Source of the DNA: Ophelia neglecta
Lineage: Eukaryota
Direction: 5' to 3'
DNA: 64,000 bases
NCBI GenBank assembly: GCA_965285935.1
Contig: OZ260663.1
Span: 49,662,001-49,726,000, forward strand
Shown here: piece after piece, positions 33,001 to 64,000 of the stretch
Position numbering within the stretch: position 1 is the first letter of the stretch
How the letters are laid out: each line of letters begins with the position of its first letter
Program-made: the position numbers

Positions 33001-36000
33001 CATGGTGAATTTCATATATTTACTCGTTACAATGAATAACTGATTAAAGTAGAGCTTGACATAATTTATACATATATATGCTTAATTTATATACCATTAA
33101 CAAGCATACAACTTATGAAATAACATACTTTCGCTCAACCATGCACTAACAATAATTATTGTTGCTTTCCAACTTCTATCTACATGAAATGTACAATGTT
33201 TTTGAGGGTAATCCAAATTTGTGCGTTTTTACACACAGACCTCTCCCCATCTTTGGCACAAGACAATATTAATTTGAATACATTAATACATGCATTTTAT
33301 AACAACACATTTGGCAGCACTATACAGTGGGTAGGACTATCTAATATAACGAAGAGGTAGGTTTTGGGGAAATAAAACCAGATAGCTGAAACTTGTTTAT
33401 ATTATCTCCTCATTGTTCAATATAGTTAAAATGAAGTTGGCTACATGCAGTTACTATAAAACTAAGTGGCTGACCATTTGAAGCACATGCAGGTTAAAAT
33501 TTAAATAAGACCCGATGAAAACTTCGGAGCGACATTAATTTTATGCCTACAAGCCTGCTGCTGCAGTTTACAGTCCATTACTGTTCATTATTGAGACCTT
33601 AGAGTTCTCCAGTCTATTATTTCTGCATGTATTGGGCCATGCAACTCCATGAGAGTGCAGCGAACAAATTACTTAATATGATAACAGCCACAAAACAGTT
33701 AATAATAAGTTATGCCTTACTTACATAGTTGAAAATGCCTTTACCGGCGGAATATGTAATTATTGGCAATCAGTGAAGCACAGTGTGAAATATGTACAAT
33801 CTGTCCTATCTTGGCCACATTGCCGGTATGGTGGTACAATGTTGCATGAATTGTCTATATTTCTCGAGGTCGACTGGGTGTGGACCGGGGCCCGGCATTC
33901 CGAGGGGGTGATTAAAAGCCGTGCCGGGGGCGAGAGCATGGGCCCGGGCCAGTTCGAGTGGTATTCGCAGAGATGAAGCGAGGCTCGGTAGATTGACTAG
34001 CGGGTTTACTGGGTGTCCGGAGAACGCCGCCATAGAGACTTGGGGTCGGAGGCCTGGCATCCCTTGACCGACGGTTAACATCTTGCCTTCTCGGAATGAT
34101 AGCCCGGCACTTGACGTCCTAGGGGGAGAAGTGGGATGGCTTGGGGACGGCGAACTTTTGGGGGGCTCCTTGTTTCCGATTATGCTGTCAATGGAGAACT
34201 TGGACGTGTGTAGAGACTGCGATGACACAGGAGGAGACACTTTCTTTTCCGTATTTTCGCTTTGTTCCTGCTTGGCAGCGGCGGCTAGAGCTGTCAAACT
34301 GCTAGAGCTGGCGTTGGCCTGTCCGGCAGAATGAGGCGGAAACGGAAATGGCATACCTGGAGGCATAGCGGGCGAGAGGGGGGTGCGAGCCATCTCGCTC
34401 GGAGGCAACATTCCCATACGTGGGGGCAGTGGTGGCATGTACTGGAAATGAAAGCCGGGTTGAGGCACTCCGCCCGAGTGTTGTCCGATGAACGCAGGGT
34501 GATTGCCCATCAAAAAGTCAGGGCCAGCCATGAACGCGGTTGGTTGCTGTAACATGTCAGGAGTGTGCCTTTTGAAACGTTTTCTTCTCCGTAAAAAAGA
34601 GCCATTATCAAACATATCTTCAGAGGCCGGGTCAAGAGTCCAATAATTACCCTTTCCCGGGTTGCCGGGCTCACGAGGAATTTTTATGAAACAGTCATTC
34701 AAGCTCAAGTTGTGTCGTATACTGTTCTGCCATGCCGGAAAGCGCTCCCGATAATATGGAAATCTGTTCATAATGAATTCGCAAATCCCGCTAAGGGTAA
34801 GTCTTTTCTGGTTTGACTGGAGTATTGACATCGTAATTAGCGCAATATAGCTGTAAGGTGGTTTGACTATATTGCTCTTCCCCGGCTTCTTGTTGGGGGA
34901 GTCCGAACACGTCCCGTCTTGCGAATCGTCGCTGTCGTCCTTAGAACCGGTATTATCTAAACAGTCTTCGTCCGTATGACTATTGAGGTACTCACCAGCA
35001 AAATTGGCATTGTCTGAATTATCCAAGTACTCGGAGTCCGAGTCCAAAGAATGTCTGCGTTTGAGGCCTCGAGGAGAGGTCTCCAGGCCAGGCTGGGAGT
35101 CGCCCACATGAGCTTCGGCCCGATGGCTGTCAACACCGGAGAGGAACGTAGGAAGTCTTGTCTCAGGATTCATCTGACGTAGGCCTATGTCGTCTTCGTA
35201 GTCGCCCTCAATGTCCAATTCATCCTCCGAAATGTCTTCTGCTTGTTGGTAATCAGTATCACCCGCTTCTACCTTGTTTTCCAGGGAAGAAGGCTGCAGA
35301 GTGGATGATCCCCGCGGGGCAGGCGGTAGCTGCTCTCCGTAATAACTACGGGGCTGACCGACAAGGGCCACCGGGCCATGCTTCTGGTGGTCCATCTCAA
35401 AACGCATCGCGCTGTCTCGCCGATCCAAGCTAAGCATTCGGGATAAACTTGGTGGCACCCTCGCAATATAATCCAGCATAAAAAGGGTAGACTTGGAACG
35501 GATAGTCTCACTGTTTATACCTGACAGTTTTCCAAAAGGTACTCGCTAAATGTCACGAAATCTTCCGCGTCTTGTCAGCTTGATTGTCCCAGGCTGTTTA
35601 ATAGGCCAACGACTCGTTTGAATTTAGAGCAACATAGCTGATGTCTAGTCGAAGTCACCATAAACCACGTTTTCCTGCCTAATAACTTTAGGACATAATC
35701 TGCAGTGACCTGCGCTCTCGGGAGTTTTGACGAACCGACTGACTTCTGGAGAGCCAGGAGTACAATAATATTAGTATGTGAGGGTGTTGGGCACAAACGG
35801 CGGCACGGGATCAGCGCAACTCGCTAGCTATGGCAGGAAGACTTCTGATTGGCGGACTAAAATCAATATGGACGCCCATTTGTGTCACGTGGCCTACTCG
35901 GTAGCTCAGTGGGAATGCGATCAGGATTTCCATATCAATGCATCAAAGGCAACGAGACACGCCTCCTTACTATCAGATGTAACAAGCGATATACACAGTG

Positions 36001-61100: not shown

Positions 61101-64000
61101 TAGTTTGCTATCAGTCCTCCACATCATAAATCAGTGGTCTATCTAGATTTATTTTCTAGCCAACCAAGCCATTTTGAAAATTTCAAACCTTTCACATCCA
61201 AGCAATTAATTGACCCTAATTCCAATAAATTTAATTAACAGGAAGCCAGCCACCAGTCTATTGTGTCAAGACAATTTGCTGGACCTTTATTTTCTGCTTG
61301 TAAAATTTAGTTCTCAATACCTCAGCTGTTTATCTCTCAGCAATGATACAAACTTCTGACACATGTAGCTGTTATAAAAACACCCCCCAAAAACTCATGG
61401 TACTATTTTCAATTTTTAACAAAGTTATAGATTCTGTTCCATGTACTTAAAAGTATTAATAATATTGCCACTGGGTCAGGCAAAGATCAATGCATCCAAC
61501 TGGATACATATTTAATCTAAGATATACATTTTATCTAAGATTGACAGTTAATCTCTTTCTTTTTAAGGAGCTAAAACTAAAGCATGGCTATTTTAAGGAG
61601 TGTGGAAAATATATGTTGGTGCACTATCTTTATATCAATTATTACACTTAGATTTATTCCTGTGCTGAATAACTCTGACAGGTATACCAGAGAGTTTTCT
61701 ATGGCTTGTTGTAAAGTTTTAATTTATTATATTCTCCAGAAATATCAGCCTAGCCGGATTATAAATCTGACACAATGAACATGATATAACCTCAATAGCC
61801 CGGTGCACAGTGTTTTACAAGGGCTGTGTGTATCTAAGCTTTCCCAAATGTAATCTCTTATTGTTCCTATTGATAAGACTGGGTGCTTTCAACTGCTTTA
61901 TGGCTCATTGTATGAATATTATTGTTCTTATGGGTATATCTCTGGCCCAGATGCTCAGACAGAGGGGGACCAGCATGCTGGTGCTTGGAACATACTGCAG
62001 TGGGCTTCAGACCACAGTGTATTGTTCTTCTAAATATGGGGTCTTCCTTGTGGAGCAATAAGGCTGCAATGTCATGAATTTAAGAGGCAAACTGCTCCCC
62101 TTTCGCAAGTTTTCGGATGTTTGTTTCCACTGTAACCACCACATGTTAAGGGCTTGGTTAAATACTTGCAAAAAAAACATTTGTTTTGCCAAATTTTTAA
62201 AACATTTTTTTCAAGTACTATATATTAGGTTCTCTGTTCTTTCCTCTACCCCTTGTAAAATGAAATTTCCAATATTTCTGTACTTATTATCTATTCATTT
62301 TACTTTGGAACAAAAACACACATCAATTATGGGAATGATTAAATTATGCAAAGTTGGCAATGCTCAAGATAACTGAGAGCTGATCACATTGGAAATGCTA
62401 TATGCTTACTTTTAATCTGAAGATATCTATACTCTCCCCACTGGGATGCTTGATGCTCTTTTCCCAGAGTAAGTGCTGTAAAAAGGAATCTACAGCCACT
62501 TCACTAACTTCCCCAGGAAACTCAAAAGACACTGTAGTCACACTCTGAGGGAGAGAAAAACACATTGGCAAACAATGAATACAAATAATCCTCAAATTCA
62601 AGAAATAGTTAAATTTAAAGAAACAACTTAAGGTGAAAATATTACCTGATCTAAGTGTGGGCTAGCTGTGCTGCTCACATTCCTTGTGGGAGACCCAAAC
62701 CTTGAGTGAAAAACAAATTGTACTGGTAACACATTTGCATCAGAACTTGAGAGAATATATTGTACCAGGGCCACAATTTCATTCAGAACTTGAAAGAAAA
62801 TAAATTTATTCAGACCAAATTTTGTCAAAATTAATTTGGATACAATCAGCGGACACAAATAAATATATCAATTAAGATAGACACTCTGGGGTGGCTTACT
62901 TTTGTAGTTCAAGTTAAGTTTGCTTGGGAACCTGGCCAAGGGATAGACTTATCTTGTGAACACTGAAAAAGCTCATGGTTTGCTCATCAAGTGACATTTG
63001 TCCTGAGGCATGTCAAGCTTCACAACATTTGTCTAGGATGTTAACTTACAACTATGTACATTCTCCATACCAATAATACTGCTTCTTAAACCATATTCCA
63101 CACTGTACTCTTAATTGCCAAAAACATTCAATGTATACATAGTACTAGTAAAAAAAAGCGAAGGTGAATTTAGCTGAGGTTTTTATAACAAACTTAAGTA
63201 ATCTTACTTGTGTTTCCCTACATCATTGTAGGCGTTGAGATCTAGAATGTCATCCAGGTCTACCCTATTTGAAAAATGACGACAAGAAGGTAATGAAAAT
63301 AAATAGCAAACTCCAACATTTTTACCACAAGAAATTTAACTGATTGGCATAAAAAACGACAAACAAAACGAAATTCATCCAAACAGTGACAAGACATAAA
63401 GGTGCTATGTGGTAAAACCTATAAATGCCTTACTTGGATCTTGTGGTCTCTATCAGCTTGGCCATACTGTTGATTTCCCTGGAAGAAAAAAACGGTTATT
63501 GCTGTTTAGTAAATGCCTTGTTTTTCTATCTACCAGCAAGCGATTTATTTCTTCTATTAGACAATTTGTAATCATGTTTAGCTGAAGCGATCATTATTTT
63601 GAAACTATATTTACATAGGCTTTTACATCAAGGGATGGCTTGAATATTAAATGTATCAAAATATTATACCAAAAAAACAAAGAAGCTCGTATTTTTATGA
63701 TACAAAGTTGACAAAAACCTGATATTTTGCTGAAGCTGTTGTAGCTGGTCGTCACTCACCAGATCCAGTTTGTTTATTATTATCACATCAGCTAAAGCAA
63801 CTTGCCTAGAAATAAAAATTGAAAATACACACAGTCATGATTAATTTCTTGACAAACTGCACTTGTTAATGTCTGTGGCAGTATGTTAAATTGCAGCCTA
63901 AGAGAGTTGCTTAGAGCGTTCTCTGGCCATGCTCCCCCCCCCCCTTCCCACTCCAGCCCCCATTCCGAGTACTTTCAGGAGTAGCCCTACATCTGCCCTA

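What the first reader, a model, noticed from the sequence alone, without database searches (positions are those of the whole stretch)
33806..63805. CBWD/ZNG1-FoxD microsynteny matching vertebrate CBWD1-FOXD4
Seen: FoxD begins about 23 kb beyond the CBWD stop codon, on the same strand, with no intervening gene. Established: mammalian FOXD4 lies directly downstream of CBWD1/ZNG1 in the same orientation. Inference: in an invertebrate this implies a linkage dating from early bilaterians, as in a genomic regulatory block where a housekeeping bystander gene hosts or borders enhancers of a developmental transcription factor.
Basis: partly seen in the sequence, partly recalled or inferred. Interest (0 to 1): 0.65.

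Follow-up and report, generated by a model that had tools for sequence, protein, structure and literature searches.

The report
CBWD/ZNG1 next to FoxD, invertebrate
In this invertebrate sequence a zinc-chaperone housekeeping gene (CBWD/ZNG1) ends about 23 kb upstream of the developmental gene FoxD on the same strand with nothing recognisable between them, the same neighbour pair as in humans, so the pairing is probably very old, but why it has been kept is not shown.

Summary
On the minus strand the window carries the last seven exons of a CBWD/ZNG1-type (COG0523) gene (63805 down to the stop at 58815-58813) and, 23.4 kb further on, a single-exon FoxD gene (about 35437-33806). None of 280 open frames between them reaches a Pfam cut-off, and the window has no tRNA, no Rfam family and almost no repeats.

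New here: CpG observed/expected is 0.185 across the CBWD body and 0.78-0.89 everywhere else. The switch lies at about 57.5-58 kb. This is the signature of a germline-methylated housekeeping gene abutting an unmethylated FoxD domain of at least 56 kb.

Evidence for an old linkage is indirect. Papers give FOXD4-CBWD1-DOCK8 in human and Dock8-Cbwd3-Cyp2j6-like-FoxD5a in frog. FoxD and CBWD hits share one scaffold in 3 of 4 other spiralians (cuttlefish, zebra mussel, a nemertean), but not in the gastropod Gigantopelta.

Adjacency in those genomes, conserved non-coding elements and enhancer contacts could not be tested. The regulatory-block reading therefore stays a hypothesis. I found no paper naming this pair as deep microsynteny, but supplementary lists were closed. 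Verdict: a real, probably ancestral gene pair, a new member of a known kind, of moderate interest.

The parts
33806..35437 (-). FoxD coding sequence in a single exon. The stop codon is 33808-33806. The start is probably 35437 or 35407; 35479 is also in frame.
   Evidence: ORF. Pfam Forkhead E 6.1e-37. Full-length alignment with FoxD proteins, from the N-terminal MRF(D/E)M(E/D) to the C-terminal W-PR. 58% identity over 97% of the length to P0002.
34610..34864 (-). Forkhead (winged-helix) DNA-binding domain of FoxD, residues 228-312 of the frame.
   Evidence: Best solved-structure match is Genesis (2hfh, 215.6 bits) against 159.7 for FOXC2. 87-95% identity to nearly all listed FoxD proteins.
34175..34198 (-). 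FSIDSIIG, an eh1-like (Groucho-binding type) motif C-terminal to the forkhead domain.
   Evidence: F450, I452, I456 and G457 are invariant in alignment A1. The name and role of the motif are recalled, not tested.
35438..57550 (.). Gene-free, repeat-poor, CpG-undepleted interval between CBWD and FoxD. It is the presumed FoxD upstream regulatory landscape and includes the FoxD promoter region at about 35.5-36.0 kb.
   Evidence: 0 of 280 frames with a Pfam hit; CpG o/e 0.78, with CpG-dense patches up to 57550.
57551..58812 (-). CpG-poor tail beyond the CBWD stop codon, the presumed 3' UTR. Poly(A)-signal hexamers lie at 58552, 58538, 58332, 58171 and 58117.
   Evidence: Inference from the CpG switch; no transcript data.
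58813..58877 (-). CBWD/ZNG1 last coding exon (KNLDDEVLKEHFRKCLVETS, then stop).
59132..59255 (-). CBWD/ZNG1 exon inside the CobW_C domain.
   Evidence: Pfam CobW_C 26.8 bits. 22 representative hits at E<=1e-3. tblastn identity 42-61%.
62410..62544 (-). CBWD/ZNG1 exon carrying the FLQHLLWEK stretch.
   Evidence: tblastn 38-60% identity to CBWD1-like and ZNG1-like proteins. No Pfam hit on its own.
62646..62700 (-). CBWD/ZNG1 exon in the linker, ending in HLDQ.
   Evidence: Splice sites and phase. No separate homology match.
63208..63264 (-). CBWD/ZNG1 exon (VDLDDILDLNAYNDVGKH).
63434..63478 (-).
   Evidence: tblastn with P0148 and P0137. Splice sites and phase.
63719..63805 (-). CBWD/ZNG1 exon at the end of the cobW GTPase domain (QVALADVIIINKLDLV...). 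The gene continues beyond the window.
   Evidence: Pfam cobW 24.5 bits..
2416..33805 (.). Gene-free interval downstream of FoxD, with the same CpG-undepleted character.
   Evidence: 0 of 110 frames of 60 aa or more in 1-33805 with a Pfam hit; the ankyrin frame was left out of this count. CpG o/e 0.78.

Best explanation
This is a real, inherited gene pair in a spiralian (mollusc-like) genome. A broadly expressed zinc-chaperone GTPase gene (CBWD/ZNG1) ends about 22-23 kb upstream of the single FoxD gene, tail to head.

The 22-kb interval and the 31 kb beyond FoxD form one unmethylated, gene-free, repeat-poor domain, which most likely holds FoxD's own enhancers. The CBWD 3' end marks the edge of that domain.

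The same neighbour relation in human (FOXD4-CBWD1) and, loosened by one gene, in frog is best explained by descent from one ancestral bilaterian arrangement. After the vertebrate genome duplications only the FOXD4/FoxD5 copy kept it.

Shown: gene identities, order, strand, spacing, absence of recognisable genes, and the CpG switch. Inferred: the methylation state, the housekeeping nature of CBWD, the regulatory content of the desert, and common descent of the linkage.
For: Gene models.

FoxD class:
- 48 of the 50 rows that carry a Fox subfamily name, among the 120 listed, say D (my count).
- Genesis, which I recall to be FoxD3, scores 215.6 bits against 159.7 for the next class.
- The forkhead domain is 87-95% identical to 116 of the 120 listed proteins. 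The other four are P0038 at 81%, P0012 at 76%, the E3-named row at 76% and the C2-named row at 68%.
- Conserved N- and C-terminal motifs run along the whole protein.

CBWD: all but one of the seven exons (62700-62646 has no separate match) align in order to residues of about 100-363 of proteins named COBW domain-containing protein 1-like (Gigantopelta) and zinc-regulated GTPase metalloprotein activator 1-like (Tubulanus), and end at the same C-terminus.

Empty interval. Few repeats.

CpG o/e is 0.185 for 58813-64000, against 0.78 (intergenic), 0.78 (downstream) and 0.89 (FoxD). The minimum over all 5188-bp windows in 1-58812 is 0.63. No CpG-dense patch lies beyond 57550. In invertebrates methylation concentrates on constantly transcribed genes (PMC11292947 and PMC4378018, abstract starts in the listing).

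Linkage elsewhere:
- Human order (PMC4306731, passages).
- Frog order (10.1101/2025.06.11.659201, passages).
- CBWD2 and FOXD4L1 named together at the human 2q fusion-site duplications (PMC10496407, passages).
Against: In Gigantopelta the two hits lie on different contigs, 102,884,749 against 91,665,651. That is 1 of 4 species not linked, and gastropods are the window FoxD's nearest named relatives in the tree.

The same scaffold is not adjacency. Two of the three shared contigs are chromosome-sized, so they could reflect only conserved chromosome-scale linkage.

In frog a Cyp2j6-like gene sits between the pair. In the caecilian outgroup the genes after Cbwd3 are Pgm5 and Tmem252.

Orientation in human is recalled only.

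CBWD orthology rests on exon-level matches and on names. No tree was made, because the joined model was left out. The only solved relative is E. coli YjiA, which does not separate ZNG1 from other COG0523 lines.

The FoxD tree had one true outgroup and an unresolved backbone, with 13 of 29 inner branches open.

Methylation and expression are inferred from sequence alone.
Confidence: 0.55

Rival explanations
1. True genomic regulatory block. FoxD enhancers lie inside or beyond CBWD (in its introns, or further towards a DOCK-type gene). Any break between the two genes would then cut FoxD off from part of its control, and selection keeps the pair together.
For: The model is established for other pairs (10.1101/633651, passages; PMC3514665, passages, which says ancient blocks typically involve Fox and other developmental families). 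Vertebrate FOXD3 lies in such a block (PMC2745767, passages). The pair survives in human, in frog and here. CBWD has the CpG signature of a housekeeping bystander.
Against: The 5.2 kb of CBWD in view, including a 3.15-kb intron, holds no CpG-dense patch and is uniformly CpG-poor. Twenty-two kb of free intergenic DNA could hold the enhancers without any need for the neighbour. Frog tolerates an inserted gene, and the caecilian outgroup has other genes after Cbwd3. Gigantopelta has the genes on different contigs. No conserved non-coding element or contact data could be examined.
Confidence: 0.25
2. Chance or convergent adjacency. The two genes came to lie side by side independently in this lineage and in vertebrates.
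For: The match was noticed after the fact. Vertebrates have several FoxD paralogues, each with two neighbours, which gives several chances of a match. One spiralian of the four lacks the linkage.
Against: As a rough inference with no call behind it: with about 20,000 genes, and allowing a dozen candidate neighbours, two sides and two orientations, a match is expected about once in a thousand. Same-scaffold linkage in three further spiralians, one of them on a 7.7-Mb scaffold, adds against chance.
Confidence: 0.1
3. Artefact. Either the assembly is misjoined somewhere in 36-58 kb, or the CBWD-like gene is a non-orthologous COG0523 paralogue, so that the resemblance to CBWD1-FOXD4 is empty.
For: No read-level data were available. 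Only the C-terminal 189 codons of the gene are in view, and no tree was built.
Against: There is no N and no long repeat in the window that could mediate a misjoin. Composition is continuous up to the CpG switch, which coincides with the gene's 3' end. Linkage in other spiralians is independent of this assembly. The best matches of the exons are animal CBWD1-like and ZNG1-like proteins that end at the same C-terminus.
Confidence: 0.05

Closest known systems
Human FOXD4-CBWD1(ZNG1A)-DOCK8 at 9p24.3, and its duplicated copies (FOXD4L1-CBWD2 and others)
   Same: The same two gene families are immediate neighbours (PMC4306731; PMC10496407). By my recollection CBWD1 is upstream of FOXD4 on the same strand, as here.
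   Different: By recollection the human spacer is only a few kb and the locus is subtelomeric and segmentally duplicated. Here the spacer is 23 kb of unique sequence. FOXD4 is one of several vertebrate FoxD paralogues, whereas the window gene is the pro-orthologue of all of them. DOCK8 could not be looked for, because the window ends inside CBWD.
Xenopus tropicalis Dmrt1-Kank1-Dock8-Cbwd3-Cyp2j6-like-FoxD5a
   Same: Cbwd and the FOXD4-type FoxD lie in one micro-syntenic block (10.1101/2025.06.11.659201).
   Different: One gene lies between them. [quoted passage not shown]
Conserved ancestral microsyntenic pairs and genomic regulatory blocks (for example Islet-Scaper, foxc1-gmds)
   Same: A developmental transcription factor sits next to an unrelated housekeeping-type gene, and the pair is retained across phyla (PMC3514665; 10.1101/633651).
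   Different: For those pairs, enhancers inside the bystander were shown. Here none is shown, and the sequence suggests that the neighbour borders the landscape rather than hosting it.
Vertebrate FOXD3 regulatory block
   Same: A FoxD-family gene lies in a large regulatory domain with bystanders (PMC2745767).
   Different: The bystander genes are different. CBWD is not mentioned in the passages I read.

Membership tests
FoxD class of forkhead transcription factors | Forkhead (winged-helix) domain | tested here: met
   Pfam PF00250, E 6.1e-37, 126.1 bits against a cut-off of 27.
FoxD class of forkhead transcription factors | Forkhead domain closer to FoxD than to other Fox classes | tested here: met
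   Genesis (2hfh/2hdc; recalled to be FoxD3) scores 215.6 and 210.2 bits, against FOXC2 159.7, FOXL2 145.3, FOXA2 143 and FOXG1 138.8. Identity is 95% to Terebratalia FoxD and 92% to Saccoglossus FoxD, against 76% and 68% to the rows named E3 and C2.
FoxD class of forkhead transcription factors | Similarity outside the domain: N-terminal MRF(D/E)M(E/D), an eh1-like FSIxxIIG C-terminal to the domain, and a C-terminal DLEKYRQ...W-PR | tested here: met
   Alignment A1 with 7 FoxD proteins from molluscs, a brachiopod, a nemertean, a hemichordate and a lungfish. The motif names are recalled.
FoxD class of forkhead transcription factors | Falls inside the FoxD clade in a tree with several other Fox classes | tested here: inconclusive
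   The tree has 32 rows and only one clear outgroup. The window gene pairs with P0002 (100) among mollusc FoxDs, and the backbone is unresolved.
CBWD/ZNG1 (eukaryotic COG0523 zinc-chaperone GTPases) | CobW/G3E GTPase domain with P-loop and the metal-binding Cys motif | not testable with these tools
   Only the last stretch of the domain is in the window (cobW 24.5 bits against a cut-off of 20.7, profile positions 139-172 of 180). The N-terminal exons lie beyond base 64000.
CBWD/ZNG1 (eukaryotic COG0523 zinc-chaperone GTPases) | CobW_C C-terminal domain | tested here: met
   PF07683, 26.8 bits against a cut-off of 22. There is a weak match to E. coli YjiA residues 264-300.
CBWD/ZNG1 (eukaryotic COG0523 zinc-chaperone GTPases) | Collinear match to animal proteins named CBWD1 or ZNG1, up to the C-terminus | tested here: met
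   tblastn of P0144, P0148, P0145-P0147, P0149, P0132, P0137 and P0123 against the window gives exon-by-exon matches in order, at 38-94% identity per exon.
CBWD/ZNG1 (eukaryotic COG0523 zinc-chaperone GTPases) | Orthology to ZNG1 rather than another COG0523 line, by phylogeny | not tested
   The spliced model was searched exon by exon and the joined step was left out. The solved structures hold only YjiA.
Conserved ancestral microsyntenic pair | The same two orthologous genes are adjacent in distant phyla | tested here: inconclusive
   Adjacent here and in human. One gene apart in frog. On the same scaffold, with distance unknown, in 3 of 4 other spiralians.
Genomic regulatory block | Conserved non-coding elements or enhancers of the target gene inside or beyond the bystander | not testable with these tools
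   No related genome, chromatin or contact data. The visible CBWD introns are uniformly CpG-poor, which is no positive sign.
Genomic regulatory block | The target is a developmental regulator; the bystander is unrelated and differently regulated | tested here: inconclusive
   The family assignments are met. Different regulation is inferred only from CpG o/e of 0.185 against 0.78-0.89.

The most novel reading that the evidence does not exclude
FoxD-CBWD (perhaps extending to a DOCK-C gene) is a bilaterian-wide regulatory block. Enhancers that drive FoxD in early ectoderm or mesoderm sit in or beyond the zinc-chaperone gene. This would have held the pair together for more than 500 million years, and would explain why FOXD4 and CBWD copies travel together in human segmental duplications. 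The sharp methylation-type boundary at the CBWD 3' end would then be a conserved architectural feature of the block.
Probability: 0.15. Interest if true: 0.55.

Novelty: new member of a known kind. Interest (0 to 1): 0.35.

Why it matters
If the pair is ancestral, it adds a datable anchor for reconstructing the bilaterian FoxD locus, and for deciding which vertebrate FoxD paralogue kept the original neighbourhood (the FOXD4/FoxD5 type).

It also offers a compact 23-kb, repeat-poor candidate landscape for finding FoxD enhancers in a spiralian.

The CpG switch shows that the limit of a developmental gene's unmethylated domain can be read from raw sequence. That is a cheap way to delimit such landscapes in unannotated invertebrate genomes.

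It is not a surprise to specialists, because hundreds of such pairs are catalogued.

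Tried and rejected
CBWD searches:
- Exon 59255-59132 against the large protein set with 'longer' lengths found nothing; 1 candidate shared words.
- The same exon against the representatives gave 22 hits at E<=1e-3. Most were short fragments. Four repeat proteins (P0124, P0126, P0130, P0138) matched in several stretches, and I take these for spurious.
- The listing of cluster members could not be made because the database was switched off. Names and sources of P0002 and of P0122-P0143 therefore stay unknown, except P0132, which names.
- Solved structures hold only E. 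coli YjiA as a relative, so they give no discrimination among COG0523 lines.

FoxD tree: too few outgroups to test class membership.

Paper searches that found no account of deep FoxD-CBWD synteny:
- 'foxd'+'cbwd': 38 papers, and the 20 listed are human copy-number or duplication studies.
- 'cbwd'+'microsynteny': 0.
- 'foxd'+'microsynteny'+'bystander': 6.
- The six-term search: 8 papers.
- 3 papers; 2 papers.
- 'cobw domain'+'forkhead'+'microsynteny': 0.
- One search did not yield the human gene orientation.

The main text of Irimia et al. 2012 has no 'foxd' or 'cbwd'. Its Supplemental Table S4, which lists ancient blocks, could not be seen.

Rejected readings:
- A hidden gene in the interval.
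- An RNA gene.
- A repeat-mediated misjoin.
- Human origin of the contig: the FoxD groups with molluscs and the CpG pattern is mosaic.

Not done:
- The joined CBWD model was never made.
- Genome contigs holds only bacteria and archaea, so it was not used.

Full report
**What is there**

The window has 64,000 bases and no N. On the minus strand a 579-codon open frame (33806-35545) carries a Forkhead domain: Pfam E 6.1e-37, 126.1 bits against a cut-off of 27.

Near the right end, also on the minus strand, lie exons of a COG0523 gene. Pfam cobW scores 24.5 bits (cut-off 20.7) on the frame 63664-63834. CobW_C scores 26.8 bits (cut-off 22) on 59106-59351.

Reading splice sites and mapping natural relatives onto the window with tblastn gave seven exons:

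| Exon (minus strand) | Note |
|---|---|
| 63805-63719 | end of the cobW GTPase domain |
| 63264-63208 | |
| 62700-62646 | linker; no separate homology match |
| 62544-62410 | |
| 59255-59132 | CobW_C domain |
| 58877-58813 | stop TGA at 58815-58813 |

All have AG/GT borders and consistent phases, 568 nt in total. The gene's 5' part, with the GTPase motifs, lies beyond base 64000.

I searched this spliced model exon by exon. The joined step was left out, so no phylogeny of the CBWD protein was made.

**The observation**

FoxD relatives begin with a conserved MRF(D/E)M(E/D), which points to an ATG at 35437 or 35407. The CBWD stop is therefore 23.4 kb upstream of the FoxD start, on the same strand.

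Between the genes (35546-58812):
- 0 of 71 frames of 60 aa or more reach a Pfam curated cut-off. Three sub-cut-off matches, E 1.4e-4 to 9.9e-3, are chance-level.
- 0 of 209 frames of 38-59 aa give a hit at E<=1e-3.
- The longest frame (157 aa) has no usable Atlas hit.

The whole window has no tRNA and no Rfam family at gathering score. The only repeat family of 60 nt or more is a 22-nt minisatellite in a CBWD intron.

Downstream of FoxD, 0 of 110 frames of 60 aa or more in 1-33805 have a Pfam hit. The ankyrin frame at 1213-2415 was left out of that count. FoxD therefore sits in about 54 kb with no recognisable gene. Genes made of short exons without Pfam domains, and uncatalogued non-coding RNAs, remain possible.

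**Identity of the two genes**

*FoxD.* Among the 120 best of 7,840 hits, 48 of the 50 rows that carry a Fox subfamily name say D (my count). The other two say E3 and C2.
- The forkhead domain scores 215.6 bits against Genesis (2hfh; recalled to be rat FoxD3) and 159.7 against the next class, FOXC2.
- It is 87-95% identical to 116 of the 120 listed proteins, including Terebratalia FoxD (95%) and Saccoglossus FoxD (92%). The other four are P0038 at 81%, P0012 at 76%, the E3-named row at 76% and the C2-named row at 68%.
- Similarity runs the whole length: the N-terminal motif, an eh1-like FSIDSIIG and a C-terminal DLEKYRQ...W-PR.
- In a quick tree (32 rows, one real outgroup, 13 of 29 inner branches unresolved) the gene pairs with the unnamed P0002 (support 100). 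It sits among mollusc FoxDs, and gastropods are nearest by path.
- The tree does not by itself test class membership, but it does show a mollusc-like spiralian, not a vertebrate or human sequence.

*CBWD.* The sixth exon found 22 representatives at E<=1e-3, mostly fragments. A search with the best fragment, P0123, returned proteins named COBW domain-containing protein 1-like (Gigantopelta) and zinc-regulated GTPase metalloprotein activator 1-like (Tubulanus). These align exon by exon, in order, to the window and end at the same C-terminus. Orthology as against another COG0523 line is thus likely but not proven. The solved structures offer only E. coli YjiA.

CpG observed/expected by region:

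| Region | CpG o/e |
|---|---|
| CBWD body, 58813-64000 | 0.185 |
| Intergenic interval, 35546-58812 | 0.78 |
| Downstream interval, 2416-33805 | 0.78 |
| FoxD frame | 0.89 |
| Lowest of all 5188-bp windows in 1-58812 | 0.63 |

The switch lies at 57.5-58.0 kb, about 1.3 kb beyond the stop codon, where poly(A) hexamers occur. CpG-dense 300-bp patches are scattered over 1-57,550 and absent beyond that point.

In invertebrates methylation concentrates on constantly transcribed genes. Dynamically regulated genes are less methylated (PMC11292947 and PMC4378018, abstract starts seen in the listing).

My inference is this. CBWD is a germline-methylated housekeeping gene. FoxD with both flanks forms an unmethylated domain of at least 56 kb. 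No other methylated gene body hides in the interval, and the CBWD transcript ends near 57.5-58 kb.

**Is the linkage old?**

Papers give the following:
- Human order: WASH1, FAM138C, FOXD4, CBWD1, C9orf66, DOCK8, KANK1 (PMC4306731, passages).
- CBWD2 with FOXD4L1 at the 2q fusion-site duplications (PMC10496407, passages).
- Xenopus tropicalis: Dmrt1, Kank1, Dock8, Cbwd3, Cyp2j6-like, FoxD5a. In the caecilian Rhinatrema, Cbwd3 is followed instead by Pgm5 and Tmem252 (10.1101/2025.06.11.659201, passages).

That CBWD1 and FOXD4 share a strand, with CBWD1 upstream, is my recollection; one search did not confirm it.

No eukaryotic genome could be read here. An indirect test was possible, though. 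The searches report the length of the contig carrying each protein. For the four named species that have both a FoxD hit and a CBWD hit:

| Species | FoxD contig (nt) | CBWD contig (nt) | Same contig? |
|---|---|---|---|
| Acanthosepion pharaonis | 7,724,830 | 7,724,830 | yes |
| Tubulanus polymorphus | 27,379,721 | 27,379,721 | yes |
| Dreissena polymorpha | 51,057,412 | 51,057,412 | yes |
| Gigantopelta aegis | 102,884,749 | 91,665,651 | no |

So 3 of 4 are linked. This shows linkage, not adjacency. Only the 7.7-Mb cuttlefish scaffold is small enough to mean more than shared chromosome membership.

**How it most likely works**

I favour (0.55) an inherited bilaterian linkage in which the 22-kb spacer and the 31-kb downstream desert hold FoxD's enhancers, and CBWD borders this domain.

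The classical regulatory-block version, with enhancers inside or beyond CBWD, is possible (0.25) but has no positive sign here:
- The visible CBWD introns are uniformly CpG-poor.
- Frog tolerates an interloper gene.
- One gastropod has split the pair.

Chance (0.1) and artefact (0.05) are less likely.

**Comparison and novelty**

The kind is known: conserved ancestral microsyntenic pairs and regulatory blocks (PMC3514665, passages; 10.1101/633651, passages). A FOXD3 block is described in vertebrates (PMC2745767, passages).

I found no paper that names FoxD-CBWD as deep synteny. Irimia et al.'s main text does not mention it, but their Supplemental Table S4 and similar catalogues could not be seen and may list it.

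I therefore file it as a new member of a known kind, of moderate interest (0.35).

Noticed in passing
window 1213-2415 (-): A single-exon ankyrin-repeat gene lies 31.4 kb downstream of FoxD on the same strand (Pfam Ank_2 E 1.3e-36). By Atlas features it resembles ANKRD63-like clusters (0.98). That is a lead only, and I did not check whether it is syntenic with any vertebrate FoxD.
   Followed up: partly
window 57500-58000: There is a sharp switch in CpG observed/expected, from about 0.8-1.0 to 0-0.4, at the 3' end of CBWD. The last CpG-dense patch (57101-57550, 20 CpGs) abuts it. It may be a methylation boundary or an insulator-like edge.
   Followed up: partly
window 60376-60504: A 22-nt minisatellite (5.9 copies, 89% matches) lies inside the 3.15-kb CBWD intron. 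It is the only repeat family of 60 nt or more in the whole window.
   Followed up: no
window 42401-46100: Three adjoining CpG-dense patches of about 950 bp each (CpG o/e 0.92-1.07, 46-48 CpGs each) lie in the middle of the spacer. Apart from the FoxD gene itself, they are the richest non-coding CpG region in the window. They are candidate regulatory elements or an unannotated promoter.
   Followed up: no
beyond window 64000 (not visible): In human and frog a DOCK8 gene follows CBWD. By recollection FOXD3 lies near DOCK7. This hints at an older FoxD-(CBWD)-DOCK arrangement that could be checked once the sequence to the right of the window is read.
   Followed up: no
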